A stretch of DNA of 64,000 bases from Octopus sinensis. Taxonomy: Eukaryota. The position numbers and the translations under genes were made by a program. Below are positions 1,872 to 55,347 of this stretch, one piece after another (the first letter of the stretch is position 1; the number at the start of each line of letters is the position of its first letter). The notes beneath the pieces were generated by a model, which saw nothing but the letters and a program-made list of their open reading frames with translations, was not told the DNA's origin and made no database searches. The stretch spans positions 142,848,001 to 142,912,000 of the forward strand of contig NC_042997.1 of the NCBI RefSeq assembly GCF_006345805.1, in the 5' to 3' direction.

Positions 1872-4362
1872 CTGTGGAGTGCTCGACCACTTGCATGTTA
1901 ATTTCACAAGCAGGCTGTTCCATTGACCAGATCAACTGGAACACTCATTGTCATAACCAACGGAGTGCTTATAATTATCAATACATGCACTCAAGTGTTA
2001 GAATTGGCAGCAGTTAAATTTTCTTTGTAGTTTCGGTTCAAATCCAGTCAATTTTGCCTTTCATCTTTACAGAGACAGTAAAATAATAGTTAAATAGCAG
2101 AGTGGCTTAGGGAATATAATCAACTATAGACACACAAAAACATGCACACACATTCATACACACATAAAAATATGTGGCCTTGTCCCTATATTAAGAATCA
2201 AAGGGAAAATCTGCCTAAGAATAGAGACCGCATTGTAATTTTTTCCCCCATCAATACTAGATAAACCACTTATATATAGATGTGTTTCTCATGCTACCAC
2301 CATTTGTGCCTTCGGCAATGGAAATTAACTATACTTTCATTAACATTCACTAATTATGTTATGTACAGTCTGAGCTGCTAAGTGAGACTTTTTGAAAGTG
2401 TGTTGTCTATTCAAGAAAACACACAGACACAAATTATGTACTGATATAATGAAAGAAAGAACTTTAAGATAATCCTTAGGAGATGGAAATAGCTAGCAAG
2501 ATATGCAGAAATGTTATAAAATAACAATTCTTTTGAAATGTGAAAAGAAAAGTAAAACATTTTAGACTACATAATAAAATATAGATGAAAAATCTCAGAA
2601 GAAAATCATAAATTTTATAAAGAGAAATATTGAAAAAGATATTAATTGGCGGCTAAATGCAGTGATTTTGTTCTCAAAGTGACTAGGATTTATTCAAATA
2701 GCTCAGAAATAGCTGTGTAATTAAGAAATATGCTTCCCAACCATGTGGTTTTGAGTTCAGCCCCACTCTGCAATACCTTGGAAAACTGTCTTCTATAGCC
2801 CATGGCTGACTAAAGCCTTGTAAGTGGATTAATAGATGGAAACTGAAAGAACCTTGCCATGTGTGTGTGTTTATTTCTACTCTAAAAATTTCTGAGCTAC
2901 AAATAGTGATGTTACTATCAGTTGCCCTTTCAACAAATCATCTGCCCTTCAACAACTTACAAAATAAGAGATCCCTTACTGTAAAAAGAAAGGCAACAGT
3001 TAGCAATAGATAGAGTATCTGGCTATAAAACAATCCCTCAATAATATATTCATCTAACTTGTGCTAGCTTTGAAAAACAGATGTAAAAGCAAATGAATTT
3101 ACCTAGCAGAATTTAAACCAGTAGAGGAAGAAAATAAATTTTTATTATAATTGCAGAAATTGGTGTTAATATTTGTATTTTACTAAATCTTATTATTACA
3201 TTTCGTTTTTGTATTTGGTTTGCAAGAATCTTTATGTGAATTTGTGTGTTGAAGCATATTTTATTGTGTCTGAGGAGAGTCATTCTCTTTTAGTGCCTTA
3301 TTAATTTAGCACACTCACCAGTTTGATTTCCACTTGTTTACTTATTTATTTATTTTTACTAAATAAGTGAAAATAAAGTAATAAATAAATAAATGTGTGG
3401 AAATCAGACTGGCAAGTGTGTTAAATTAATAAGGCACTAAAAGAGAATGGCTCTCCCCAGACACAATAAACTTATTACTACATATTTTGGAGATGTACTT
3501 TATCTATTTATCAATTTAAAACTACCTGCTCCTGGCCCTCGAGAGCTTTTAGCAGAGTTCATTCTAGTAGCAGCTTTCAGGCCATATCTCTTGTCTGAAG
3601 ATTATGTTCTCTTTTCATCTTACCAGTTTTTAAAGCCCTGAAAAGGGGGCATGAGTGAAGCCCTTCTTCTGCTGATTTAGCCATAACCCAAAAATATAAT
3701 TAACAAAAAACAAAGTGGGCTCTGTATAAAGCACTTGGGTGATAATACTAAACCAGGACGCAAATTAGGTCTTCCATCTATGATAGAGTTTATTCATTTT
3801 TTTGGTTGTTCGTTTCACCATAGATTGATGGGTTTGGATGGAGAATTATTTGAGGCAGGCTTTTACAGCTGGGTGCTCTTACTGTTGCCAACTGTTACTT
3901 CAAGTAAGGGGTTCCTTTATTGCACACAACATTGAAAACACAGAGGGAGCAGTCATAATGTCAACAAGGAATGTCAACATTAGCATTGCTTCATTCACAC
4001 AATAGCAAAGAATTGAATATAACTATTTACATACACACACACATGCACACATACACATGTAGACTTCTTGAAATTTCTGTCTACCAACACCTTTACATGG
4101 TATCGGTTAGCCCTGGGCTATACCAGAAGACACTTGCCCAAAATGCCATGCAGTGGAACTGAACACCTGAAACCCCTGGTAACAAGGTGAATCCTTAAAC
4201 CACACAGCCATACCTGCACCTAACCCTAACCCTAATTCACAGCTCTTAATTTTCTTCTTTTTCAGGCAGTATTTTTTTTTAAAAGACTCTCTTTGTGAAC
4301 TTGCCTTTCAACATTGAATATTCTGTATTTTTACTAACTGAATTTTTTTTGTGTTTTGATAG

Positions 4363-25975: not shown

Positions 25976-27591
25976 TTTAATTTTGCCGAGGTCAACTTTG
26001 CCTTTCATCCTATCAGGGTCAATTAAATAAGTAGATTACTCACTGAGGTCAATGTAATCCACTTATCCCCAGCCCCTAAATTTCAGGCTTTGTGCCTGTA
26101 GTAGAAAGGATTTTTATTATTATTATTGGTACGTAAAAAGCACCCACAACACTCTCAGAGTGGTTGGCATTAGGAAGGGCACCCAGCTGTAGAAACTCTG
26201 CCAGATCAAGATTGGAGCCTGGTGCAGCCATCTGGTTTGCCAGCCCTCAGTCAAAATCATCCAACCCCATGCTAGCATGGAAAGCGGACAGTAAACGATA
26301 ATGATGACGATGATGATTATTATTATTATTATTATTCAGATGGCATGCTGGCAGAATTATCAACACTTCAGACAAAATGCTTAGTTTTTGTATATTCTAG
26401 GTTCTATTCCTGCCGGAGTCATTTTTGTCTTTCATTCTTTCAGAGTCAATAAAAATGAATTACCAATCAAATACTGAGGTCAATGAAATTGACTAAACCC
26501 CACTCCCTGTTACTAAAATTACTAGCCTGGAGCCAACATTTGAAACAATCAGGTGGTGAGATGGCAGAATCGTAAATGTGTCAGACAAAATGCTTCATGG
26601 CATTTCTTTGCGATTTTTATACGTTGAGGTAAACTTTGACTTTCATCCTTTCAAGGACTGATAAAATAAGTATCAGTTACTGGGGTAGTAGGTCAATGTA
26701 ATCAATTTCCTCATCCCTTCAAAATTGCAGGCTTTGTGTCAAAATTCAAAACCATCATTATACATGTATACCTGCATATGTATATATGTATATGTCTATA
26801 TATATATATGTGTGTGTATGTGTTTTGTGCCAAAATTTGAAATTAGTATTTTTATTTTTTTTGTATGGTTTTTTTTTATTCTTGAGTTAGGTATCTGCAT
26901 ACAACACCTTTGTAATTCAAAACAAAAAACAAAATAATATAAGAAGTTTATGAAACATATGATGTATACTTTTATTTTCTAAAGAAAATTTAATCCTTCA
27001 TGTCACTATATGATATTAACTTCAACCTTTGTATCAAACTTTGCTGGTTTACAGCATCTTATTCACAGTTGTTGACTCTTCCTGCCAAAAAAAAACATGT
27101 AATCATTGATTTTTTTTTTTTTTGCTTGTACTTTTTTTTTTAAATCTTTTTTCAAAATCAGCAGATAATTGAAAACTCTAACACAACTTTAAGACTCTAA
27201 ATTTCTAAATTTCAGTTATGTCTTTTTCCAACAATAGATTATTGTTTTTATTTTCCAATATGTGCTACAAACTTTAAATCCTCATGAATTCTCAAATCCG
27301 TTTTTCACATGGAGTAAAAAAACAGATCTTATTAAAATGTGTATGGGTGGTTTATTGGACACGTGTGTTTGTGTGTGTTTGTTTTGACTGTTCAGTTAAC
27401 TAAATTGCTATAAGTTTTATAATTTACTCCAAGACATGTCAGTAACATTTTTGGAAGAATATATTCTCTCATAGAACAATTTATCTCCTTACTCTTCAAA
27501 AAGAAACAGTACTAAAATTTTACAAATATCAGATTGTTTCTGTCTATAACTATATGTGTGTGTGTATGTAGACATGTTCATTATATATATA

Positions 27592-27753
27592 CTTTACCTG
27601 TAGGTTAACAAGGCTACAAATAGTTTCATATAAAGAAATCTTCACAACTGTTCAAGCTTGTCAAATGGAAGCGTTAGTACTCAGCACGCTTGAACAATTG
27701 TAAAGATTCCTTCACATGAAACCTTTGGTAGCCTTGTTAACCCACAAATAAAG
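27592..27753. repeat. Fold-back (inverted repeat) element with degenerate hammerhead-like arms
   Basis: Arms ~27592-27657 and ~27688-27753. The right arm reads gc-TTGAACA-stem-GAAAC-ctttg-GTA-gc. Confidence 0.7.
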
Positions 27754-27813
27754 AATATTTACCTACCAATGCAGGGCTGAACACTCATCCTCACTGCTTG
27801 ATATTAGCCTTTA

Positions 27814-28670: not shown

Positions 28671-29060
28671 GACATAGTGTACTGTTCCATGATGGGCCGA
28701 TCAACAAAAAAAGTACTCTATTTGGTGGGAGATAAATATTATTTAATAAACACAGTATATTTTTTTTTATGAGCATGCGGTGAAAACAACTCAGACAACA
28801 TTCTTTAACATGTTTGGTGTCTTCACACTCCTCAGAGCCCGAGGATCACATGAAAGCACCAGACATGTTATAAAATGTTATCTGAGTTGTTTTCATTGCA
28901 TGAAACTATTAGTAGCTCATAAAATATATATACTTTGTTATAAGTGTTTATCTGCTTACATGCAAGCATTTAGATGCAAAACAAGGTGTAGAAAATGGCA
29001 CTTAAATACCAAGAATAGAGTAAAATAGTGTTTTATTGATGCTGAAAATATTTTACAAAT

Positions 29061-31808
29061 TGTTACTCAGAGTTTCATAAGAAAACCATGATTTTTTTAA
29101 ACAATAAAATTGTTTGTAAATCTTTATAAACAACACTGTGATAATTATTTAGTAATTCATCAAATACACATTTATAGCTGATTGGACAGGGTGTTATTAC
29201 TTTTGAAAATAACAGGAATCACTTAGATGAAAACAACTGAACATTGACAAAAAACATAAACATGAGCCTTTTATTTCCTTTAAGGGGCACAAGGTTAGTT
29301 TTAGTAGCAACCCTAAGTGTAGGCTTATAAACCTGGTGATGACTGAAATAAATATATTTAGCAAAAATATTTTAGATTTTGCCTTATTTAGGAATAGAAA
29401 ACGTTATAGAACTCTCCTTATGTGGAAAAAACATGTCTGTTATAAACTAGTTTAAGAACATTAAATATGGGAACAATAAACAGAATTGTAGATTTACTTA
29501 ATTTGATTTGATGAACTTTTACCTGTCTACTACAATAAGACCTCTGTTATTAAAAGTCCCAAATTTTACTAAAAGCATACGTACCCATCAGTGACCCAGA
29601 CACTGATATCATCCTGCTTGCCAGGAAATCATTGCTATTTTTGCTCTACCTAGGTTACAAAAAATGGCAATGAATTGTTCAATGGATGCATATGATGGAT
29701 CGAAATTATGTATGCTTAAAGCGACATATATTCTGGATTGTTTACATACAGAGTTTCCATATTTAAGTGTGAGTGTATAAAGGGATGATGGCCTTATTAT
29801 AAGCAGCAATATGAATGGGTATTAGCTTGGTAGACTCAGGAAGAATCTTTTTGCATTTTTCCAGCATATGGGCTTAAGGAACTCATTTGACACAGACATT
29901 GGTTGTGTCAACTTTTTAGATATCACTTTACATCTACAATCTCACAGTTTTAGACCTTATCACAAGCTAAATAAAAGGTTGTTTCATATTAAGAATCCTG
30001 AGCACCCGCCCTGTATGCTTTAAAAATATAGTTCGTAATAAAGCTGATTGGATCTTCCATTTGTCATCTGATGAGGTGGGTTTCAACATAGTCTCTTCTT
30101 CCTACGTTGATGGTTTTAGGAATTGCAAATTCTCCAAGCAGATCCTTAACATTGGCATTAAAAATAATCCCAAGAGATCCTACAGAACTAGAACTAGAAT
30201 GGCTCAGCCCAACATTTAGTATGAATGTCAAAACTAATGTAGCAAGAGAATTTCAAAATTTATTATCTAGGCATTTCTCCAGGGGACCACGAAAATCAAG
30301 TATTCTTGCCGTAAAAATTTTGCCATGTTTGTTAACCAGCATGATGTGAGTAGACTTGATAAATCTAATGGATGTGATGACAACCCTAAGTGCAATTATA
30401 AAGATCTTAATAACTGACCAATCAAGGAATTTGTATATAGGGTTAAGATCCAGGTTGGTAATAGCCCTGTATAAAAAAAACTTACATTGGAATCACAGAA
30501 AACAGCTTCTAGATGAGATTTTATCTTCACAAAAATTCCTTTAAATACCAGAAAAAAGGTTATCAATATGTTTATCAAAATGCATGGCAATTGAAAGAAA
30601 TTGGCTTTGCTCCTTTCAAAATTCAATGGTTTGAAAGAGAAAGCCCATACAGGCATGGTTCCTACCGCCACTCTATGAAATGCCCATTATACTAAGCAAA
30701 AAATATTTCAGTCTATTTCAAGACAAAATTAGCCTTGAACTATAAATCTAAACTATTGAATTGTTGTAGACATTCTTCAAAATTTCTGATTTCAAGACCT
30801 TTGCCACCAAATACATTGCCATTTCTCATTATTGTATATGTTTCACTCTTTTTTTCTCCGAATATGTTGGAAGTGTTTTTCGTAGTTTTGAACTTGATGT
30901 TTTCTTCTGACTGTCGCATTCGATCTTTTTTTATAATTTTATAAGTTTTTTTTTATTTTGTCTAATTTTTTATAAACCAGAATATAGGCTATGCACACAT
31001 TTATCATATATTATTGTATTTTATATTATTTTGTTGCTCATTTTAAAAAAATTATCACTCCTACCTTGAATTAATTAGATTGATTCTTACCATGTCCTTA
31101 CATATTTCAGAATTAGATTTCATGTTTTATTTTGATCAGCCATTTTTCTGTATGTGTCCATTTTTTCTGTTTGTTTTTTAGGGTGTTTTTTTTTTGTTCC
31201 ACCTTCACATACTTCAGTAATCTATCTATCTAATTTCTCTAGCTAATGTGTACTTTCTTCAGCTAATGTGTACTTTCTTCTCCCGCTATTTGTTTTTCCA
31301 TATTTGATACAAATTGTCAATTGTGACTGCCCTGTCATCCTCTTTACCTTTACCTTTTCTCCTCTACTCCCCTTTTTCTATTTTTTTTCCTACCTGTCAT
31401 AAACAACCCTCCACATCCCTACTTCTTTAGGGCAAGCTTACTTATTTATTATTTACATTGCTACTCATTGTCCTTGTCTTAATTTTGATTTTTTTCTTTA
31501 ATATACATTTACTCACTCTTGATATCTGAAGGTGCTTTTTTTCCCCCATTGCCTATCATATCTATTTCCTTGTTTGTAGGCAATTCATGTGCTTCTGTTC
31601 TTTCTTTTTTCATCGAAAGTCAATCATTTTCATCTAACAGATTCCTGTTATTTCGAAAAGTAATAACAGTAACACGCTGTTTTTCAAATGTTTATTTGAT
31701 GAGTAACTAAATTATTATCAGTGTTGTTTATAAACATTTACAAACTAACATATTGTACAAAGCACACATGCCTGCTTGATTATCAGTTCTGTGAAACTCT
31801 GAGTAACA
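29061..31808 (+). mobile_element. Degenerate Penelope-like retroelement (Naiad-type RT + GIY-YIG) with inverted terminal segments
   Basis: Broken ORF ~29470-30815: FDLMNFY, MDAYDGSKLCML..YIL, (Y)RDDGL, VNFLDITL, HPP, WLSPTFSMNVKTNVAREF, CxCx5C, YIGITENSF.MRFYLHKNSF, LNYKSKLLNCCRHSSKFL. ~29061-29270 is the reverse complement of ~31585-31808. Confidence 0.88.
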
Positions 31809-31827
31809 GTAAATTGTTATATATGTA

Positions 31828-32041
31828 AGGCAGCAAGCAGGCAGAAACATTAGCATGCCAGGCAAAATGCTTAGCGGTATTTCGTCTGTCTTTACGTTCT
31901 GAGTTCAAATTCTGCTGAGGTCAGCTTTGCCTTTCATCCTTTCAGAGTCAATAAATTGAGTACCAGTTACGTACTGGGGTTGATCTAATCGACTGGTTCC
32001 CTCCCCAAAAATTTCGGACCTTGTGCCTAGAGTAGGAAAAA
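31828..32041 (+). mobile_element. Second-family SINE with 18-bp TSD
   Basis: TAAATTGTTATATATGTA duplicated on both sides (31810-31827 and 32042-32059). Confidence 0.9.
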
Positions 32042-32087
32042 TAAATTGTTATATATGTATAAGCATATGATCATACATGTGTGTATG

Positions 32088-37122: not shown

Positions 37123-37157
<35 letters not shown>

Positions 37158-37289
37158 AATTAGAGAAAAACCACAATTATGCAATTCAATGATAGACATA
37201 AACCAAATCATAAATAAAATATATTTTAAAACATATAACTAGATCACCAAAAATGCAAAAATGAATAAACAATATATAATATGTAAAAA

Positions 37290-37368
37290 GACTATGTACA
37301 TTTCATGGCTATAATTTAAATTTAATCAAAAAACAATTCAATTTAAAATTATAGTCACTCCTCAGGTC
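37290..37368 (-). ncRNA. Hammerhead ribozyme motif (left arm, minus strand)
   Basis: gac-CTGAGGA-[gtgactataattt...aaattatagccat]-GAAAT-gtac-ATA-gtc. Confidence 0.75.
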
Positions 37369-37476
37369 AACAATAATAGTTAAATAAATAAGCAAATAGA
37401 ATTAAACAATCATGATTTTATTTCTTTAAGAAATATTGTTTAATTCTATTTGCTTATTTATTTAACTATTACTGTT

Positions 37477-37578
37477 GACCTGAGGAGTGACTATAATTTT
37501 AAATTGAATTGTTTTTCGATTAAATTTAAATTTAATTGCAATTCGAATTTAAATTATAGCCATGAAACGTATGTAGTC
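37477..37578 (+). ncRNA. Hammerhead ribozyme motif (type I, minimal stem III)
   Basis: gac-CTGAGGA-[gtgactataattt...aaattatagccat]-GAAAC-gtat-GTA-gtc. Confidence 0.8.
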
Positions 37579-37847
37579 TTTTTACATATTATATATTGTT
37601 TATTCATTTTTGTATTTTTTGTGATCTAGTTATATGTTTTAAAATATATTTTATTTTTTATTTATGATTTGGTTTATGTCTATCATTGTTTGAATTGCAT
37701 AAGAGTGGCTTTTCTCTAATTTATATATATTATATATTTATATTGTGAAATTTGATTTAATACTAAATTGAATTTTTCCCTGTAAATTTTGAGTTATACT
37801 CCCTATTATTATTATTATTAATATTACTTTATATATATATATATATA

Positions 37848-40065: not shown

Positions 40066-41427
40066 GGTATTTGTGAGGTCACCTAGTAGATCACAAAGCA
40101 AGACCTCTACTGAAAGAGTATTGTATTGAGGGAGGTGGTTAAAGTATGATAGACAGACACAGGTGTCATGCTATAGAGAAAATACATGGTAACCCCAGTT
40201 AGAAAGAGAATATGGTGAAGATGTGTCAGAGCAAGTTAATTCTGAATATTTAAAGGATTTCTTTTCAAAATTGCCAAAATCTGCTATTTCTTAAATTGCC
40301 AAATGAAAGAGTATCAAATATATTTTGAAGATTTACATTTTTCATTTAAATAGTTTTAAGTCTAGCATAATATTAATAATTTTTTTAGAAATATTATTGC
40401 TAGTTGTTAACTTGAGTCAATAGCAGCTATATTCAGCTCTTCAAATATCAATCATGCTTACTCGAAATACTTCATAACTTAGGTTGTGATTTTGAAATTT
40501 CAACCTTGTTGACCTCTGCCAGTGACATTACTGATATAATCTGTATCAAGCCTACAGGCTCTTGAGTCTTGATCTTATCCAGGTTTTCAGGATGTTTAAG
40601 TTGAAGATAGGAAACTCCCTCCCACCTGAATGAGATGCCAGGTCATGACAGTTAACCCCACTAGGTGTCACTGGTATGCACATTTCTAGCTGAGTGTACT
40701 AGAGCAATGTGAAACGAAGTGCCTTGCTCAAAGACACAATAAGCCTCCCAGTCCAGAAATTGAACCAACAACCTAATACTCATGAGCTCAACACACAAAC
40801 CACTAAGGCCACGTGATTTGATTATAAGTTAAATGAAACTTTAATATAAATGAACATATCAACTTCTATCAAATGTACATTGTAAAGTGATTCCACTTTA
40901 CTCAGCATGTTTAATAAAAGATAGTAATTAACAATATGGTCCTATAATTTGCATATTGTATCCTTTCTTCCAATAAGTCCTGAGAATAATTTCAAAGAAT
41001 CTGTATTGGCAGAACTGATGCAGACACCAGTATTTAGTTTGTTTTGTCCTTCTGTGAATGGAATTCAAATCCTACTGATGTCGACTTTATCTTTCATTCC
41101 TTCAGGGATTGGTAAAATAAGTACAGCCAATAATATACTGCAGTCATTTCAATCAGTTATTCAAATGAAATTTATAATCTCCAATAACATATCAATGTTT
41201 CAGGATCCATGAGTGAAACAAATTTTTCTGCCACTAGCTTTAGATTTCAACTGGGCAAGAAATTTTCAAGTGATATGGCTGGCTATACACACACACACAC
41301 ATATATATATAGTCACAGTGAGGATATTTAAACATAGGGATATTTTTATCCAAGATACACTGGTTTAATATATTGTATTTTGAAGAGATATTTCTACAAT
41401 GAATACATTATATAAAATATCAAATAT

Positions 41428-41703
41428 TATTATTAAGTTTGAAAATAGAGAGATCTAATGGATAAAATCAATTTATTAATCATCAGGGTGTACAAAGAAC
41501 AATACAAGGATTACACATATTCTGAGTATTCCAACGGATCATAATGTAATCCTTGTCCTTTGTACACCCTGATGATGCAAAATTATATATTTATATATGT
41601 TTTGTAGCTATAATTTTGTTTGTGAAATGAAACAATTGTAGGTGAATATGTGAATTAATTAATTTGTATCCATTAGATCTCTCTGTTTTCAAATTTAATA
41701 ATA
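41428..41703. mobile_element. Fold-back element; right arm with a full hammerhead, left arm internally deleted
   Basis: Outer IR tattattaagtttgaaaatagagagatctaatggata / tatccattagatctctctgttttcaaatttaataata. Inner IR tcatcagggtgtacaaag / ctttgtacaccctgatga. Confidence 0.75.
41565..41644 (+). ncRNA. Hammerhead ribozyme motif
   Basis: cacc-CTGATGA-[tgcaaaattata...tataattttgt..]-GAAAC-aatt-GTA-ggtg, with palindromic ACAATTGT stem III. The base of stem II is imperfect. Confidence 0.75.
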
Positions 41704-43432
41704 TATATATGTTACACAATTCTTTACAAGTTTGGCACAGGGCAAGCAGTTCTAATGGGGAATATAAGTTGATGACACTCATTTTGCTGTTTTATCTTTG
41801 TGGATACAACTCATTAGTATGATGCCCAGACAGGTAAAATCATTAAAGCTGCACAAGGCATCTCTATTAAATTTATATTAAGTATTTAAATGCATCAAAT
41901 AACATTCTTTTCTTTCTAGAAATAAATATTTCAAAAATGATAATGTCCATTTACTTTCGAGATGTATTTATATATATAAATATCAGTATTCTGTTCTAAC
42001 ACTACCTCCATGTTAAGTTGGAGGTCAACGTTGGCTGTTTTCTGTCACTATTAATTATCATATATATATATATATGGTTCAAAACAGTTTGATTGAAACT
42101 TCTTGGTAGTCTGAGTTTCAAGTGTGATGCTAATCTTTGGCTGTTGGAGTTTGAATGAGAGGACAGTTGAAGAGAGTCAATGTTTATTACAGATGTTAGC
42201 CTGCGATTGGTCAAGAAAAGTCGTATGGTATCACAGTTTGATGTTGGTATTTCAGTGACTACAGTTGAGTGCCCTTCTTTCATTTGTTTATTCACTCCTA
42301 TATATATACATATACACACACACATATATATATATAACATAGAGACTAGTATAAAATATTTCACTCTGGTTAACAGGTAAAAGGGTGAAGACCACCAAGG
42401 CACAAGTCTGGGCAAAGTTGTTTATGGAAGACCAGCAGTCACCCATGCATACTAGTCTCCCCTCTCCTTGCCAACAAGGTGAGGCAAAGGCTGATACAGC
42501 TTGGCACCAGTGATGTTGCAACTAATTTCTACAGCTGAGTGAACTGGAGCAATGTGAAATAAAGTGTTTTGCTCAAGAACACAACATGCAGCCTGGTCCA
42601 GGGATCAAACTCACTACCTCATGACTGTGAGCCTGACAATCTAACCATTGAGCCATGAGCCTTAAGAGATAAAGTTGGCCTAAAGCTAGGTAGAACCAGT
42701 GTGGTACTAGCGGGAAAAATAAAAATGCAAATTGGAAATTTAGCTAACAAAATAAAATTAACAGATAATTTTTTATCACTCTCATAGTATCGATCACTGC
42801 AGTATGTTGTTTTGTCTTTCATAAGTATTATAATGAACATCCCGCAACCTATGAAAGCAACTAAATTTTTCGTCTTTGGGGGCTTATTTTAGTTCAGCTC
42901 AAAAAATGTCCATTACTTCTACAGTTTTTTTTTTTGCTGGCAATAGTGAATTCTACATATTTATAGTATATGTGTAGAAATAGGTGATAGATTGAGCAGT
43001 TCATAGACAATTATTTGCCTAAGAAAACACAGCACATATACAGCTTCAGTATAGGAACCTTCATGGCTAAAGCTGGTTGCTTGTCACATTATCAATTCTA
43101 CTACTGCTTTAGCCACTGATTGTAATGTTAATTTTAAAATCAGAAATTCTTCCTTTTTCTTGCGTTCTTGTTTTTCTCTTCTTATTTGTTTTCTTTTTTG
43201 TTTATATTTATGGATGGTCATTACAAAAAAAAACAGACTTTGCTTTTTTTCTATTCTTCTGTGTACAGATTGTTATGTGACCTCTCTTTCTGGTCACCTC
43301 AGTGGACCTTGAACTGGTATTGCAATAAACATTTGGTATGCCACATTAAATGCTGTATTCTTCTGGTTCAAATATTATTTGTATTGTTTTTGTTATGACT
43401 ACTAGTCTCATGCCTATGTTAGAACCCATCAC

Positions 43433-46012: not shown

Positions 46013-46546
46013 TATAATATATATATAATATATATTACAGATATATATGATATTATATTATATATATATATACAGAGAGAGATATATTATATATAATATA
46101 TATAAGATTAGATAGATGATATCTATATAGAATATATATAGATACAGACTATATATTAGTATAGATATATATATATATATATATATGATATATATATACC
46201 AGATCTATATATATATATAGAGATAGATATATAATAGATATATATACAGGAGATGATAGATACGATATATAGATAACAGATAGTTATATATATATGATAT
46301 ATATATATATGAGATACAGATGATTATATACATATATAGATATATATATACAGATATATATATCTATACAGTCGATATATTAAGATATATATATATATAT
46401 ATATATACAGTATATAGTATAGATTATAATAATATTAATATATATGATATAATATATACAGATAATATATATATATTATATATATATAGATATATATATA
46501 TATACAGCTATATATATATATAATACACAGATATATTCTAATATAC

Positions 46547-46582
<36 letters not shown>

Positions 46583-46824
46583 ACCGATATATATATATAT
46601 TATATATATATCAGATAATATATATATATATATATATTATAGATTATATATATATATATATACAGATATATATATATATATATATCTATATATATATATA
46701 CAGATATATAATATTATATATATATAGATATACAGATATATATATTATATATATATATATATACAGATATATATATATATATACGATTATATATATATCT
46801 ATATATATATATATATATATATAC

Positions 46825-46891
<67 letters not shown>

Positions 46892-46965
46892 TATATATAT
46901 ATTACGATATATATAATATTATATAATTTATATAATATATACAGATATAATATATATATATATAG

Positions 46966-46997
<32 letters not shown>

Positions 46998-47162
46998 TAT
47001 ATACCCGATATATATACAGAGATATATATATATTATATATATATATATATACCCGATATATATACAGATATAATATATATAATATATATATATTATATAT
47101 ATACAGATATATATTATATATATATATATTATAGATATATATATATATATTATATATATATC

Positions 47163-47193
<31 letters not shown>

Positions 47194-47469
47194 TATATAT
47201 ATATATTATATATATATATATAGATATTATATATATAGATATAACAGATATATATATATATATATATATCTCTATATATATATATACAGATTCTATATAT
47301 AATTATATATATATATAATATATATTACAGATATATATATATATACTATATATATACAGATATTATATATATATATATATATTATATATATATATTATTA
47401 TATCTATATATAATATATAATACAGATATATATATACATATATATTATTAAATATATATATATATTAAA

Positions 47470-48066
47470 TAGAGACAAAACCACTATTAGGGAAATCAAA
47501 CAATGAAAACTTAAGCCAATACATAAGATTATTTATTATATTATTTAAATATAACAAAATTATTAAAAAAATATAATTAATATCACACTATGATCGTTTC
47601 ATGCCGCGAACTTCTTCAAATTTTGAGTCGCAGTCATTCATCAGGTGGTTTAAATATCTAAAATATAATCAATATTTTTAAGATATAAATAATATATATA
47701 ATATAAATTTTACTTATAATAACTCTATTATTAAATATGATTACATCGAAATCGACTATAATGTAAATATTAACTTTAATTTATAAGGTAGAAAACCCAT
47801 AATCTAATATCATATTAGTCTATATCTAATTAAATAAATATTTAAAATGACTAATTAATATATTAATGATTTTTTTTTATAATTTTGTTATATATTTAAA
47901 TAATATAAATTAAATAATCTTATGCATTGGCTTAAGTTTTTCATTGTTTGATTTGCCTAATAGTGGTTTGTCTCTAATTAATGAATATAATAAAATTTTA
48001 CTATAAAAAGGATTCAATCCAAATCTGATTTTCCCTGTAAGTTTGGATTTATTCCCTAATATTTAT

Positions 48067-48070
<4 letters not shown>
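47470..48070. mobile_element. Fold-back hammerhead element inside the (TA)n satellite
   Basis: Arms ~47470-47582 and ~47860-47976 (tagagacaaaaccactattagg / cctaatagtggtttgtctcta). Tail with ttttccctgtaa...tccct as in 37740-37815. Confidence 0.8.
47586..47647 (-). ncRNA. Hammerhead ribozyme motif
   Basis: cac-CTGATGA-[atgactgcga...tcgcggcat]-GAAAC-gatc-ATA-gtg. One stem III mismatch, consistent with CpG decay of ACGATCGT. Confidence 0.75.
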
Positions 48071-48151
<81 letters not shown>

Positions 48152-48292
48152 AATATATATATATATATGTATACTATATTATATCATATATAAAGATAGT
48201 TTATAATGATATATATATGTATAAAGAATATATATATATTCATATATATACATAACAATATTATATGCATAAAGATATTACATATATGTATA

Positions 48293-48344
<52 letters not shown>

Positions 48345-48351
48345 AGTATAT

Positions 48352-48382
<31 letters not shown>

Positions 48383-48396
48383 TATTATATATTATA

Positions 48397-48461
<65 letters not shown>

Positions 48462-48922
48462 ATATACATATATATATATATATATATAAGATATACATAT
48501 ATAATATATATATATATCTATATATAGATATATACTATATATATAATATATATTATATATATTATATATATATAAAGATCTCCTTTCTATATATATATAT
48601 ATATATATATAAGATATACATATATATATATATATATATAAAGAATACATATATATATATAATATATATAATATCTATAAAGATATTATATATAAAGATA
48701 TATATATATAAAGATATTACATTATATATATAGTATATATTTAAAGAATACATAATATATATATATACATATAATATATATTTAAAGATATCATATATAA
48801 ATACATATATATGTATATATATTGAATATATATAATATATATGTATATATTATATTGATTATATATTAATATATAGATATATATAATTAATATATATTAT
48901 ATATATATATATATTAATATAT

Positions 48923-48953
<31 letters not shown>

Positions 48954-48977
48954 TATATATATATAATTATATATATA

Positions 48978-49051
<74 letters not shown>

Positions 49052-50271: not shown

Positions 50272-50715
50272 AGGCAGAAATCTAGCAGAATCGTTAGCAC
50301 ACTGGCAAAATGCTTAGCAGCATTTCATGTCTTCACAATCTGAGTTAAAATTTCGCCAAGGTCGATTTTACCTTTCATCCTTTCGGGGTTGATAAAGTAA
50401 GTACCAGTTAAGTTACTGGGGTTGATGCAATCGACTTACCCACTCCCCAAAAGTGCTGGTCTTGTGCCAAAATTTGAAATCAATATCATTATTATTAAGA
50501 TGGCAAGCTGGCAGAATCTATAGCACACTGGATGAAATGCTTAGTGGTATTTCGCCCATTGCTATGTTCTGAGTTCAAATTCCACCGAGGTCGACTTTGC
50601 CTTTTATCCTTTCAGGGTTGATAAATTAGGTACCAGTGAAGCACTGCAGTCGATGTAATCAACTAGACACCTTCCCCAAAATTTCAGGCCTTGTGCCTTT
50701 AGTAGAAAGGATTAT
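50272..50715 (+). mobile_element. Two tandem second-family SINEs
   Basis: Same body as the 13088-13510 copies. Confidence 0.85.
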
Positions 50716-52334: not shown

Positions 52335-53800
52335 CTGGTGCTGGTAACATTTGCTGGAAGAGTTTCTATTTAAATGCTGTTATTAGTCAAGACAAATTCC
52401 CCGACAATATGACTGAATTTTCTTTTTATATTTTATTAATCTTCAGAAGCAACTAGTAAAATGTCGATTGCAATCATAAATGACTTTGTCAAATTTTTCT
52501 GCCACAACTTGATAGTTATATTTCTAAACAAATGAAGGAATTAGACCTTCAGAAGAAATGTTACCTTGAAACTGACAATTTTATATAATTATTTATGTAG
52601 TTTTTATGAAGGTGGCGAGCTAACAGAATTATTAGAATATTGGGGGGGGGATGCTCTTGACAGTATTTCTTCCAGTTCTTTAGATTCTGAGCTCAAATTC
52701 CACTTAGGTCAACTTTGCCTTTCATCCTTTTGAGGTCGATGAAATAAAGTACCAGTGAAGTACTGGGGTCTATAAAATTGACTAATCCTCCCTCTCCCAC
52801 AAAAATTCTGGCCTTGGGCCTAAATTATAAACAGTTATGTAGCTTCTTACAAAACTCAACAGTTACACCTTTCAAAGTTTGGTTGTTTTTGTTTTTTGTT
52901 TGTTTTTTAAATAAATGTTTGTATTTCAATAAGAAAATGAAAATAAACTGTACAAATTAGATGGCATATAAGGACCTACAGATTCTCCCATTTACCTTAC
53001 AAGTAAAAGCCAATGCCTGATATTTTAAGACATACAAAGGTAACATTTATCTGTTAATTAAATGTTGCATTCTTTTTTATTCATTTTTTTCATCGTTGTT
53101 GCCTTTATTTTTTTTTTTTTTGATTGATTCTGACAAATGATTATTATAATGTAGCTGAAAGCAAAACAAAAACAAAAAACAATGAGATGAAAATTTATTA
53201 CTGTATAACTGAATCAATGAGAAAACAATAATTTGAGAGAGAGAGAGAGAATGGTGTTATTTTGTTATAGCATGGGAACTTGTATTTTTACATCCCAGAA
53301 ACATTTTCGTATAGTTATTTCATCAGCTATTTAACACAAATAATATTATTGATGACAATAAAAACTTTTTTATGTAAATTTATTTTGTGTCTGTCTTCTA
53401 CTGTGGCCATGGGCTGACCAAGGCCTTGCAAATGGATTTGATAAACAATAACTGTTAAAATGAAAGATTCAAAAAAAGAAACCCCACAAAGAGGGAGTGG
53501 AAAAACAACTCATGGAAAATAGAAGAAATCTTTAATGTTTTTGAGCTTATGCTCCTCCTCCTCTTCCTCTTCCTCTTCTTGATTTAATGTCCATTTTCTA
53601 TGCTGGCATGGATTGGACAGTTTGAGACTGGCAAAACATGTTTTACCAGTGAGCTGTTTGTTTTCATTACCTGAAGGAAGAGGGAAAATAATGCTTTGAT
53701 GACAAGAAGAACATCTGGCAGTAGAAAATCTGCTTCAATAAACTCCATCCAATCCAAGAAAGCATAAAAAAGTGGACATGATGACGATGATGATTTATGA

Positions 53801-53820
53801 CTAGTGTAGACAATCATAAT
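53801..53820 (-). CDS. Terminal coding exon of the same minus-strand gene (DYDCLH*)
   Basis: Strong acceptor (T)n-ATTTCAG at 53821-53840 on minus. Phase-1 continuation G|AT TAT GAT TGT CTA CAC TAG. Confidence 0.6.
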
Positions 53821-55347
53821 CTGAAATAAAAAAAAAAAAGCAGTTTTTAAGTTCCGTGGGAAATTAATTGGCAAAGAGGAAAATAGTAATGAATATTTCC
53901 ACAACACATTATTCAACAGAATCAACATTAACAATTGACTGTCATGCCAAAGTATAGAAGGATATACCAGTGCAGTTCGCTGCCTTAGCAAAGAAATGAA
54001 ACATTTGTTAGTTGTACAGGACTGCATTCTTGTGGCTGTCATGATCTTATGTCAGCCAATGCTTTGTGAGTGAAATTTGGTGTAGAGAAACTGCACAGAA
54101 GCTCATGTGATTTATATATCTATTTTTTGATGATTTATATCAGATTCAAATTTGGGCACAAAGCCAGCCAGTTTGAGGGAGGTAATAAGTCAGTTACATT
54201 GACCCCAGTGCTCAACTAGTACTTATTTTATTGGCCTTGAAAGGATAACTGGCAAAGTCGACCGCAGCAAAATTTGAACTCAGAACATAAATATGGGCAA
54301 AATTCTGCAAGCATTTTGCCTGTCATGCTAACAATTCTACCAGCTCACCATCCTGTAACAAGGGTTACAGGAAAAGTGCCCAAAAGAGATGCAAATTTTT
54401 CAACAAAGAGTAAATGTGAATAAAAATATAGATTTGTAACAGAACGAGTCACCTTTTTTAGGAGTTATCAACCCATGAAAGGTGAAGTCAATAAAAAATA
54501 GGATTTGAACTAAAAAGGTAAAAAAAGAAGTGAAAGGACAAAGTAGCTATATATTATAGAATTTAGTCTGATACGCCATCATTTCTGCTCGTTTATTTCC
54601 CTGCTTTAGGTTTTGCGGGAAATAAAGTGGCAGAGAGAAAAATAGCAATCAATATTTCCATGATATTACTTCACTGAATCAATACCAACAATTGGCTGTC
54701 CAGCCAAAGTATCAGGATTTTCTCAAGAAGGATATACCTTCTTAAAATAACTGTCTTAGTTGTAAGATATCTTTGCTAAATAACATTTCTTTTTACTAGC
54801 CCCTTAATAGAGAGAAGATTTCCTTTCCTTCCAACCACAAAGAAATAATCTCTCCAGCCATCTTCATCATCTGTTTATGTTTATTCCTGTGAGGGTGGTG
54901 AGAGCAGAATCCTTGGACATTCTTTACAGAGGTTCTTATAAGAAGCAACTGTCAGCAAAGGATTCAGCTGGATCCCCAAGAAAGATCAGTCATGGCAAGA
55001 CCAACCAACTCCCTTACGGTCTCCCTACCTCTCTACCTCTAGATTTCCTGTCAGTTAGTCCCATCTGTAAAATCAGTCAAGCAATTCTTTCTCCAGACAT
55101 TCTAACCACATGTCCATAATAACAGAGCTGTAACCTCCAAATATGGAGAAGTAGCAGCTTAACCTGGAGTGACTACCTCATCTCTGAACTATGCACTCTA
55201 GTAGCTCTGTAGAGAAAATCCTGACTTCTATTTGCAATTGTATTTTTTCAGTCACTGCCCAAGAAATAATTCCAGACCTTGATCAAGGAAGAAAAAATTC
55301 ACTAATTTTAATTATTACTGATTTTAAAAGAAATTTAATTTTGTTAC

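What the first reader, a model, noticed from the sequence alone, without database searches (positions are those of the whole stretch)
29061..31808. Naiad-type Penelope-like element bounded by inverted hammerhead-like termini: candidate partner of the fold-back elements
Seen: remnants of an RT with an RDDGL active-site motif, a CxCx5C linker and a C-terminal GIY-YIG nuclease. The 3' ~220 nt recur inverted at the 5' end. Both copies carry TTGATGA...GAAAC-TCTGA-GTA (31696-31805 on +, 29157-29163 back to ~29064 on -), a hammerhead-like core with U instead of C3 and a poor stem I. Inference: deleting the interior gives the architecture of the small palindromes at 27.6, 37.2, 41.4 and 47.5 kb, suggesting an autonomous/non-autonomous PLE system. 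Their sequences differ, so the link is architectural, not demonstrated identity.
Basis: partly seen in the sequence, partly recalled or inferred. Interest (0 to 1): 0.72.

Follow-up and report, generated by a model that had tools for sequence, protein, structure and literature searches.

The report
Dead Hydra-clade Penelope retroelement copy
This is an old, broken, front-truncated copy of a known kind of jumping gene (a Hydra-clade Penelope-like retroelement, not a Naiad) with the mirror-image end piece usual for such insertions, and at least one nearby small palindrome is a shorter stub of a related element, so the finding is ordinary.

Summary
The observation mostly holds. [quoted passage not shown] The last ~200 nt recur inverted at the 5' side (143 of 191 aligned bases identical).

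The interpretation needs three corrections.
- It is a Hydra-clade Penelope-like element (Craig et al. 2021, PMC8557442), not a Naiad. Naiads carry the nuclease at the N-terminus and lack canonical hammerheads.
- GAAAC-UCUGA-GUA is a real hammerhead 3' half. It aligns without gaps to the intact ribozyme of a young sister family in the same genome.
- The insertion runs on the left to about 28940.

The fold-backs at 37.2, 41.4 and 47.5 kb carry Penelope-type hammerheads facing outward. The 47.5 kb one is a head-to-head pair of stubs of the 3' UTR of another coding Hydra-clade family. Those stubs are cut short at varying points, so they look like dead-on-arrival copies, not a separate non-autonomous family. 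The 27.6 kb palindrome showed no link.

All of this layout is in print, and the scan reached the same reading before on other DNA. Low interest.

The parts
28940..29060 (-). Tail (sequence 3' of the hammerhead) of the inverted 3'-end copy; left boundary approximate (+/-20), next to a short TA run at about 28926-28936
   Evidence: Aligns about 72% with the 3' tail of the young sister family. It also matches the tails of old-family copies L018, L109 and L014.
29061..29254 (-). Inverted copy of the last ~200 nt of the element. It holds the hammerhead 3' half (reverse complement within 29060-29077) and a 12-nt deletion over the 5' box.
   Evidence: 143 of 191 aligned bases identical to 31606-31812.
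29270..30020 (+). Reverse transcriptase remnants (residues 191-441 of the 727-aa relative), with frameshifts and stops; RDDGL at 29782-29796
   Evidence: tblastn; translations.
30010..30372 (+). Region between RT and linker (WLSPTFSMNVKTN at about 30200-30292)
   Evidence: tblastn, (residues 438-621 and 504-534).
30373..30393 (+). Linker zinc-finger-like remnant, Cx5C (first Cys of CxCX5C lost)
   Evidence: translation; compare CNCKNESSC in L025.
30433..30794 (+). GIY-YIG endonuclease remnants (VYRV 30433-30444, YIG 30483-30491, ...CRH near the end), with in-frame stops
   Evidence: tblastn residues 612-720, 43% identity, E 7e-23.
30795..31605 (+). 3' untranslated region, T-rich, non-coding
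   Evidence: No protein match. Family DNA matches reach query position 2076 of 2748.
31606..31822 (+). Right (sense) arm. It ends about 13 nt after the hammerhead, then TA/TG-rich flank.
31771..31809 (+). Decayed hammerhead: CCUGC UUGAUUA UCAGUUCUGU GAAAC UCUGA GUA ACAG (C3 to U, G8 to U)
   Evidence: Gap-free match of 26 of 39 positions (my count on the printed strings) to the sister family's CUGU CUGAUGA ACGGCAACGA GAA ACUCAGAGU A ACAG. Old-family copy L018 keeps a nearer-intact box at the same spacing.
31828..32041 (.). Later SINE-like insertion with an 18-nt target duplication; not part of the element
   Evidence: Direct repeat D3; sequence; no tRNA found.
47466..47990 (-). Fold-back made of a 405-nt stub (sense on the - strand) and a 130-nt stub (sense on the + strand) of the 3' UTR of another, Asn-rich Hydra-clade family. 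Hammerhead at 47644-47589 (-) with one helix III mismatch.
37137..37743 (.). Fold-back of two PLE-type 3' ends, hammerheads at 37477-37578 (+) and 37368-37290 (-)
41418..41714 (+). PLE-type 3' end with a hammerhead at 41565-41644 (+) and a 60-nt inverted end piece

Best explanation
Window ~28940-31822 holds a decayed, 5'-truncated copy of a Hydra-clade Penelope-like retrotransposon, preceded by an inverted ~315-nt copy of its own 3' end, which was likely made in the same insertion event.

Shown:
- The coding remnants match residues 191-720 of an intact 727-aa protein of a young, abundant sister family in this genome, in the order RT, Cx5C linker, GIY-YIG.
- Both arms carry the 3' half of the clade's hammerhead ribozyme.
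- The flanks are TA-rich.
- The copy is full of stops and frameshifts.

Inferred from what is published on these elements:
- The nuclease nicked a TA-rich target.
- The reverse transcriptase copied the element RNA by target-primed reverse transcription and stopped early, which gave the 5' truncation.
- A second, inverted cDNA of the 3' end was joined at the other side, giving inverted termini with the 3' ends outward.
- The hammerhead would have cut multimeric transcripts, acting as a dimer through its near-palindromic helix III.

The element is now inert. The nearby fold-backs at 37.2, 41.4 and 47.5 kb are likely the same kind of product from other Hydra-clade families, with the sense copy cut down to a few hundred bases.
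For: 1. Protein homology. tblastn of the sister protein against the 64-kb window hits only 29270-30794, covering residues 191-720.

2. The sister family (6 fetched loci; frames of 725-766 aa in all 6) shows the motifs that section 11 of PMC8557442 names as Hydra-specific:
- RWK (RRLRWKAFFF) and DKT (SDKTRNLY).
- A divergent RT4 (FDVPMGAYDGAE) and YRDDGL.
- The CxCX5C linker (CNCKNESSC in L025).
- A C-terminal GIY-YIG with no Cys between GIY and YIG.
- CxxC and CxH near the end.
Published Hydra proteins printed from the paper's supplement carry the same strings, for example GLYRDDGL and NPKCRLINPAKSEIG.

3. Hammerhead.
- My descriptor found 14 identical copies of CUGU CUGAUGA ACGGCAACGA GAA ACUCAGAGU A|ACAG in the 6 sister loci.
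- The window's right arm aligns to the sister ribozyme without gaps.

4. 5' truncation. Another old-family copy, L003, has residues 1-45 and 154-222 where the window has the inverted arm.

5. Architecture. The young family has an inverted 440-nt 3' piece, then a direct pLTR, then the ORF, in every fetched locus. Old-family copies L109 and L014 also have the inverted arm next to the body. The paper's Fig. 2 legend and supplement table describe this layout.

6. Fold-backs.
- The descriptor gave 3 hits in the window, all in fold-backs, against a mean of 0.14 in 50 Markov controls.
- Eight 47.5-kb-type units lie 1.7-2.7 kb downstream of the Asn-rich family's nuclease, in sense.
- The 3' UTR of L083 aligns contiguously to 13 loci with varying 5' ends and one common 3' end.

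7. RT and EN identity.
- RVT_1 and GIY-YIG are each hit weakly in 3 of 20 relatives.
- A profile search against PDB aligns motifs B and C to a group-II-type RT at E 0.16.
Against: - Pfam finds no RT or GIY-YIG domain in the window pieces or in the two intact proteins tested.
- Rfam finds no hammerhead in the window, the old-family loci, the sister loci, or even a 151-nt stretch around the sister ribozyme.
- The sister ribozyme's helix II has only 2 base pairs plus an A-A mismatch. Its fold is no clear outlier (z -1.42).
- My hammerhead descriptor is home-made, and its stems are required by construction.
- None of the 19 old-family loci passes the descriptor.
- Assignment to the Hydra clade rests on motifs and on reading published sequences by eye. 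No RT tree with reference PLEs was built.
- The arms differ by 25%, which is about as much as unrelated copies of the family differ. Sequence alone cannot tell one event from two independent insertions into the same TA tract.
- The 37.2 kb family's coding partner was not found. In L108 it lies inverted beside an ORF start, but no sense copy follows the ORF.
- The 27.6 kb palindrome shows no ribozyme and no PLE link.
Confidence: 0.88

Rival explanations
1. Two independent insertions. A short 5'-truncated copy of the same old family landed in opposite orientation in the same TA tract, next to the longer copy. On this reading the inverted termini are a coincidence of target preference, not a product of one integration.
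For: - Hydra elements are reported to insert into (TA)n.
- This genome holds thousands of such stubs.
- Arm-to-arm identity of 75% is no higher than identity between separate copies, 64-79%.
Against: - The same arm-next-to-body layout recurs in L109 and L014. The arm's inner end falls at nearly the same place (query 341-364), although the bodies start at different points.
- The young family has it in all 6 loci.
- All 11 opposite-strand pairs of the 41.4 kb family are head-to-head, none tail-to-tail.
- The layout is the published norm for PLEs.
Confidence: 0.07
2. The fold-backs are a true non-autonomous family, retrozyme-like. On this reading they are discrete short hammerhead-bearing units that are transcribed and mobilised in trans by Hydra-clade proteins.
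For: - They are high-copy and young: 2419 and 2696 first-look candidates, with best copies 90-94% identical.
- A 2026 preprint argues that vertebrate non-LTR retrozymes derive from PLE pLTRs (abstract only).
- No coding partner was found for the 37.2 kb family.
Against: - Copies of the 47.5 kb family start at many different points along the coding element's 3' UTR (query 1 to 1779) and share one 3' end.
- The 37.2 kb copies also vary, from 386 to 944 nt.
- Their apparent fixed 5' edge coincides with an (AAT)n run that breaks alignments.
- They occur as head-to-head pairs, not the tandem arrays that define retrozymes.
Confidence: 0.15
3. A Naiad-type PLE.
For: A CxC-like motif lies near the nuclease, and the host genome is of a kind where Naiad remnants are reported (supplement table).
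Against: - The nuclease lies C-terminal to the RT.
- Relatives carry canonical hammerheads. Naiads lack them, have the nuclease at the N-terminus and run 3.4-4.4 kb.
- The motif set is that of Hydra.
Confidence: 0.01

Closest known systems
Hydra clade of C-terminal EN+ Penelope-like elements (Craig, Yushenova, Rodriguez, Arkhipova 2021, PMC8557442), including Hydra-1_Obim from Octopus bimaculoides
   Same: - Short element, under 3 kb.
- Single ORF with RT, then CxCX5C linker, then a C-terminal GIY-YIG without CCHH.
- RWK, DKT and YRDDGL motifs in the sister family.
- TA-rich target.
- Hammerhead near the 3' end with helix III ACUC-N-GAGU, followed by stem I ACAG.
   Different: - The window copy is dead. 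It lacks the first ~190 residues, has lost the first Cys of the linker, and has a mutated ribozyme core.
- Identity to any curated family could not be computed here.
Complex PLE insertions with an inverted 5'-truncated copy at the 5' end and a one-sided tail (Fig. 2 legend of PMC8557442; Penelope-13_HM is annotated so in its supplement table)
   Same: - An inverted copy of the 3' end abuts the 5'-truncated sense copy, with the 3' ends outward.
- The ~120-nt stretch beyond the hammerhead is present at one end only.
   Different: The published tail is 30-40 bp; here the one-sided stretch is about 120 nt.
Hammerheads of metazoan PLEs (Cervera and de la Pena 2014, PMC4209133)
   Same: - Type I layout.
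- An unpaired base after position 9.
- Short helix III with a palindromic or near-palindromic loop that suits dimer formation.
- Pairs on opposite strands 100-700 bp apart were noted there.
   Different: - The window's own copies are mutated.
- Several of the neighbouring families have very long helix II inserts (40-80 nt).
Naiad/Chlamys PLEs
   Same: PLE-type RT, a CxC-like motif and a (TA)n target.
   Different: Naiads have an N-terminal nuclease, an IFD, DKA, no canonical hammerhead, and a length of 3.4-4.4 kb.
Non-LTR retrozymes (Cervera and de la Pena 2020, PMC7229834; 2026 preprint 10.64898/2026.07.22.740005)
   Same: Short non-coding hammerhead-bearing repeats tied to PLEs.
   Different: Retrozymes are tandem arrays of unit length. 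Here the stubs are head-to-head and of varying length.

Membership tests
Hydra-clade PLE | GIY-YIG nuclease C-terminal to the RT in one ORF | tested here: met
   Order of tblastn pieces on the + strand; intact frames of relatives.
Hydra-clade PLE | CxCX5C linker before the nuclease | tested here: inconclusive
   The window has Cx5C only (30373-30393). Relative L025 has CNCKNESSC; most young copies read CNF. The Asn-rich family has CTCRDKSKC.
Hydra-clade PLE | RWK motif and DKT in place of DKG in the N-terminal part | tested here: inconclusive
   The window copy lacks this part because it is truncated at residue ~191. Both motifs are present in the sister family, and KWK/DKT in the Asn-rich family.
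Hydra-clade PLE | [quoted passage not shown] | tested here: met
   There is no Cys between VYRV and YIG in the window, or between VVY and YTG in relatives.
Hydra-clade PLE | Short element inserted in (TA)n | tested here: met
   About 2.9 kb including the inverted arm. A TA run lies at the left and a TA/TG microsatellite at the right. Relatives end in (TA)n.
Hydra-clade PLE | Canonical hammerhead near the 3' end | tested here: inconclusive
   The window core is mutated (UUGAUUA). The homologous position in the sister family holds CUGAUGA...GAAAC. Rfam reports none.
Hydra-clade PLE | RT groups with Hydra in a PLE phylogeny | not tested
   Reference sequences could not be brought into the tools. 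Only weak RVT_1 and PDB RT matches were obtained.
Naiad PLE | N-terminal GIY-YIG nuclease | tested here: not met
   The nuclease follows the RT.
Naiad PLE | Lack of canonical hammerhead | tested here: not met
   Relatives carry one in every pLTR copy.
Hammerhead ribozyme, type I | Core CUGANGA ... GAAA ... UH with helices I-III | tested here: not met
   Not met for the window's own two copies. It is met by descriptor in the sister family and in the 37.2 and 41.4 kb fold-backs.
Hammerhead ribozyme, type I | Self-cleavage | not testable with these tools
   Needs a bench assay.
Non-LTR retrozyme | Tandem unit-length repeats, each with a hammerhead | tested here: not met
   The stubs are head-to-head and vary in length. 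One partial tandem was seen at C5:67271298-67272063.

The most novel reading that the evidence does not exclude
In Hydra-clade elements the inverted arm is made to a set length at each insertion, while the sense copy is truncated at random. The stretch beyond the hammerhead ends up at one side only. Three old-family copies share the arm's inner end (query 341-364) but start their bodies at 371, at or before 667, and at 1731. If this holds genome-wide, it is a sequence footprint of internal initiation plus a site-specific snap-back or template switch during Penelope integration. That step has not been worked out biochemically.
Probability: 0.25. Interest if true: 0.4.

Novelty: already known. 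Interest (0 to 1): 0.14.

Why it matters
It matters little in itself. It is one more dead copy of a retroelement clade already described in this kind of genome, with a published architecture.

Two practical points follow.
- Standard libraries miss these elements. Pfam sees neither domain in the two intact proteins tested, and Rfam sees none of the ribozymes. Annotation pipelines will therefore call the coding copies 'unknown' and are likely to mistake the fold-back stubs for small DNA transposons.
- The genome holds a young sister family with open frames and invariant ribozymes. That makes it a natural data set for studying how Penelope-like elements build their inverted ends.

Tried and rejected
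- Pfam on eight window ORF pieces gave nothing relevant.
- A word-indexed protein search with the 74-aa RT piece, looking for longer proteins, found none.
- Rfam was run four times: on the window, on old-family loci, on sister loci, and on a 151-nt stretch. It found no hammerhead; the hits were microsatellite look-alikes of miRNA families.
- Names for the nearest database relatives: none is given.
No fold evidence was obtained.
- Coding partner of the 37.2 kb family. Of 12 loci fetched with its 5' part, 2 have a Hydra-type ORF start in inverted orientation. The two ORFs belong to different families, and the one I extended (L108) has no sense copy downstream.
- A seemingly fixed 5' edge of that family was rejected as evidence for a discrete unit, because it coincides with an (AAT)n run.
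- The apparent 405-nt 'unit' of the 47.5 kb family was rejected as an artefact of the query's own length.
- The large inverted repeat 46340-47583 / 47860-49047 is mostly TA-rich simple sequence.
- ARAGORN found no tRNA in the SINE-like insert.
Full report
**What is in the sequence.** The window is part of a 2.72-Gb animal genome. On the + strand between 29270 and 30794 lie broken reading frames. They read ISFKGHKVSFSSNPKCRLINLV, then RDDGL (29782-29796, just after a stop), FLDITL, HPP, WLSPTFSMNVKTN, GCDDNPKC (30373-30393), VYRV (30433-30444) and YIGITENSF..H (from 30483). Aligning 29061-29254 against 31606-31812 gives 143 matches, 48 mismatches and 19 gap columns. The same pair scored E 2.9e-21 in the whole-genome search.

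**Relatives in the same genome.**
- DNA copies of this family are 64-79% identical, and none of the 19 fetched loci showed an intact element-length open frame.
- A 65-aa RT piece found more than 4500 first-look candidates of a younger sister family, about 49% identical over that piece, many with long open frames.
- All six sister loci I fetched hold frames of 725-766 aa.
- tblastn with that protein against the whole window hits only 29270-30794. It covers residues 191-720 in four main pieces that lie in different frames.
- Another old-family copy, L003, carries residues 1-45 and 154-222 where the window has the inverted arm. The window copy is therefore 5'-truncated.

**Which clade.** The sister protein shows these motifs:
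- RRLRWKAFFF and SDKTRNLY.
- KDHKDNFSRNPKCRLINPAKTEIG and FDIIDFYPSI.
- FDVPMGAYDGAELCMLIG and GLYRDDGL.
- The linker CNCKNESSC (in L025; CNF in most copies).
- VVY...YTG with no cysteine between them, CKLCLLEK, and CRH near the end.

Section 11 of Craig et al. 2021 (PMC8557442, read) defines the Hydra clade by exactly this set. The elements are short, with a C-terminal GIY-YIG lacking CCHH, a CxCX5C linker, an RWK motif, DKT instead of DKG, a divergent RT4, possible CxxC and CxH motifs, insertion into (TA)n, and canonical hammerheads. Published Hydra proteins, as printed from the supplement, carry the same strings. The supplement also lists Hydra-1_Obim, 2507 bp, from Octopus bimaculoides.

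Naiads have the nuclease at the N-terminus, are 3.4-4.4 kb long and lack canonical hammerheads (abstract and sections 5-6). 'Naiad-type' is therefore wrong.

Independent support for the two enzyme domains is weak but points the right way:
- Pfam sees nothing in the two intact proteins.
- RVT_1 and GIY-YIG are each hit in 3 of 20 aligned relatives (best E 3e-4 and 9e-4).
- A profile of those 20 aligns RT motifs B and C to a group-II-type RT in PDB at E 0.16.
- The family is very large: 20,178 cluster representatives at E up to 0.001.
- I built no tree with reference PLEs, because reference sequences could not be entered.

**The hammerhead.** The sister family carries CUGU CUGAUGA ACGGCAACGA GAA ACUCAGAGU A|ACAG about 150 nt from its 3' end, in the ORF's orientation, in each pLTR copy. 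My descriptor found 14 identical copies in the six loci. [quoted passage not shown]

The window's right arm aligns to this without gaps: CCUGC UUGAUUA UCAGUUCUGU GAAAC UCUGA GUA ACAG at 31771-31809. By my count on the printed strings, 26 of 39 positions match. The 5' box is the mutated UUGAUUA at 31776-31782 (C3 to U, G8 to U). The left arm has a 12-nt deletion over it. Old-family copy L018 keeps GUGU CGAUGA UCGGUUACGU GAAAC UCUGA GUA ACAG at the same spacing.

The stretch containing it folds no better than shuffles.

Three results weigh against the ribozyme reading:
- Rfam reports no hammerhead in any of four searches.
- Helix II of the sister ribozyme has only two pairs flanked by an A-A mismatch.
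- Its fold is not an outlier (z -1.42).

Cervera and de la Pena 2014 describe such weak, dimer-dependent motifs in PLEs, with an extra base after position 9 and a palindromic helix III (passages read).

**Architecture and boundaries.** In the young family, every fetched locus has an inverted 440-nt 3' piece, then a direct 512-nt pLTR, then the ORF and a 1.19-kb 3' region ending in (TA)n. That makes an 880-bp fold-back upstream of the ORF.

In the window, the inverted copy continues left of 29061. The stretch 29076-28971 matches the sister family's tail beyond the ribozyme (72%). It also matches the tails of old-family copies. The left end is therefore near 28940, beside a short TA run.

The sense copy ends about 13 nt after the ribozyme, at about 31822, and runs into TA/TG-rich sequence. 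A later SINE-like insertion with an 18-nt target duplication occupies 31828-32041. The ~120-nt tail is thus present at one end only. A one-sided tail, though only 30-40 bp long, and an inverted 5'-truncated copy are both described for PLEs. Internal initiation of reverse transcription has been shown in vitro for one PLE (abstract of PMC11167929).

Old-family copies L109 and L014 share the inner end of the inverted arm with the window (query 341-364). Their bodies start at different points. This hints at an arm of set length but does not exclude later deletions.

**Age.** The arms differ by a Jukes-Cantor distance of 0.31. If both were made in one event, each has drifted about 0.15. On the scale used for Octopus vulgaris repeats (0.2 corresponds to about 56 My; passage in PMC13282606), that would be some tens of millions of years. 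This is an inference, and it assumes a comparable rate.

**The fold-backs.**
- My descriptor gives three hits in the whole window, all in fold-backs: 37477-37578 (+), 37368-37290 (-) and 41565-41644 (+). Fifty Markov controls gave a mean of 0.14.
- The 47.5 kb element has the motif at 47644-47589 (-), with one helix III mismatch. Eight of its nine fetched genomic relatives have the intact CAC CUGAUGA ... GAA ACGAUCGU A|GUG.
- In every case the ribozyme's sense points outward.

*47.5 kb.* This fold-back is a 405-nt stub joined head-to-head to a 130-nt stub.
- Eight of the roughly 40 best-scoring genomic units lie 1.7-2.7 kb downstream, in sense, of the nuclease of a second, Asn-rich Hydra-clade family. 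That family's frames of 748 and 859 aa show KWK, DKT, YRDDLL and CTCRDKSKC.
- The 3' UTR of one such element, L083, aligns contiguously to 13 loci. Their 5' ends range from position 1 to 1779, and all end at 2182-2194.
- A coding PLE therefore does share its terminal sequence with this palindrome, but the short copies are truncation products of varying length.

*37.2 kb.* Copies of this family also vary, from 386 to 944 nt. Its last 116 nt are 76% like the L083 end. No coding partner was found.

*41.4 kb.* This family has 11 opposite-strand pairs in the hit list, and all are head-to-head.

*27.6 kb.* This palindrome has no ribozyme by my descriptor and no link to a PLE.

**Verdict.** This is a dead Hydra-clade Penelope-like element in its usual complex-insertion form, surrounded by shorter products of sister families. 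The kind, its ribozyme, its inverted ends and its presence in this sort of genome are in print. Earlier notes of this scan on other DNA reached the same reading. I searched the paper library three times and found nothing that treats these particular families, but nothing about them departs from the published pattern.

Noticed in passing
window 31828-32041: SINE-like insertion with an A-rich end and an 18-nt target duplication TAAATTGTTATATATGTA (31810-31827 and 32042-32059), just after the element's 3' end. ARAGORN finds no tRNA in it.
   Followed up: partly
window 28774-28902: A 129-nt palindrome (52-nt arms, 85% complementary) lies about 40 nt to the left of the element's left end. Its nature is unknown.
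   Followed up: no
window 27584-27761: Palindrome of two ~90-nt arms from a family with at least 780 first-look candidates. The arms also occur singly. It has no hammerhead by my descriptor and no link to a PLE, so it is the one fold-back the PLE reading does not cover.
   Followed up: partly
window 50499-50697 and 54155-54352: 200-nt inverted repeats (73.5%) lie 3.4 kb apart, with a 155-aa open frame at 53584-54051 (-). This may be another element with inverted ends.
   Followed up: no
window 3260-3470: A further 215-nt palindrome (85% self-complementary).
   Followed up: no
L045-L050 (for example L048:1977-6316): Young sister Hydra-clade family. Copies are 97-99% alike in five of the six fetched loci (the sixth about 89%), with open frames of 725-766 aa. 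The ribozyme is invariant and occurs up to three times per element. A near-perfect (96% identical arms) 880-bp fold-back lies upstream of the ORF. There are more than 4500 first-look candidates.
   Followed up: partly
L081:4048-6291 (-), L082:3988-6564 (-): Second Hydra-clade family, with a long Asn-rich, (AAT)n-encoded insert between RT and nuclease and a ~2.2-kb 3' UTR. The first look gave 222,854 candidates, a count probably inflated by the simple repeat.
   Followed up: partly
L045:7589-7671, L048:1582-1507, L072:734-824, L073:3179-3120, L088:1228-1270, L089:1851-1791: Further, different hammerhead motifs turned up by chance in the flanks of fetched loci. Such ribozyme-bearing ends are scattered densely through this genome.
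   Followed up: no
window 26000-50000 and loci L045-L050: Rfam's permissive mode returns many miRNA-family 'hits' (mir-297, mir-3149, mir-466 and others) that are TA/TG microsatellites. A MIR2863-like hit in L045:7166-7275 is a 110-nt perfect hairpin of unknown kind.
   Followed up: no
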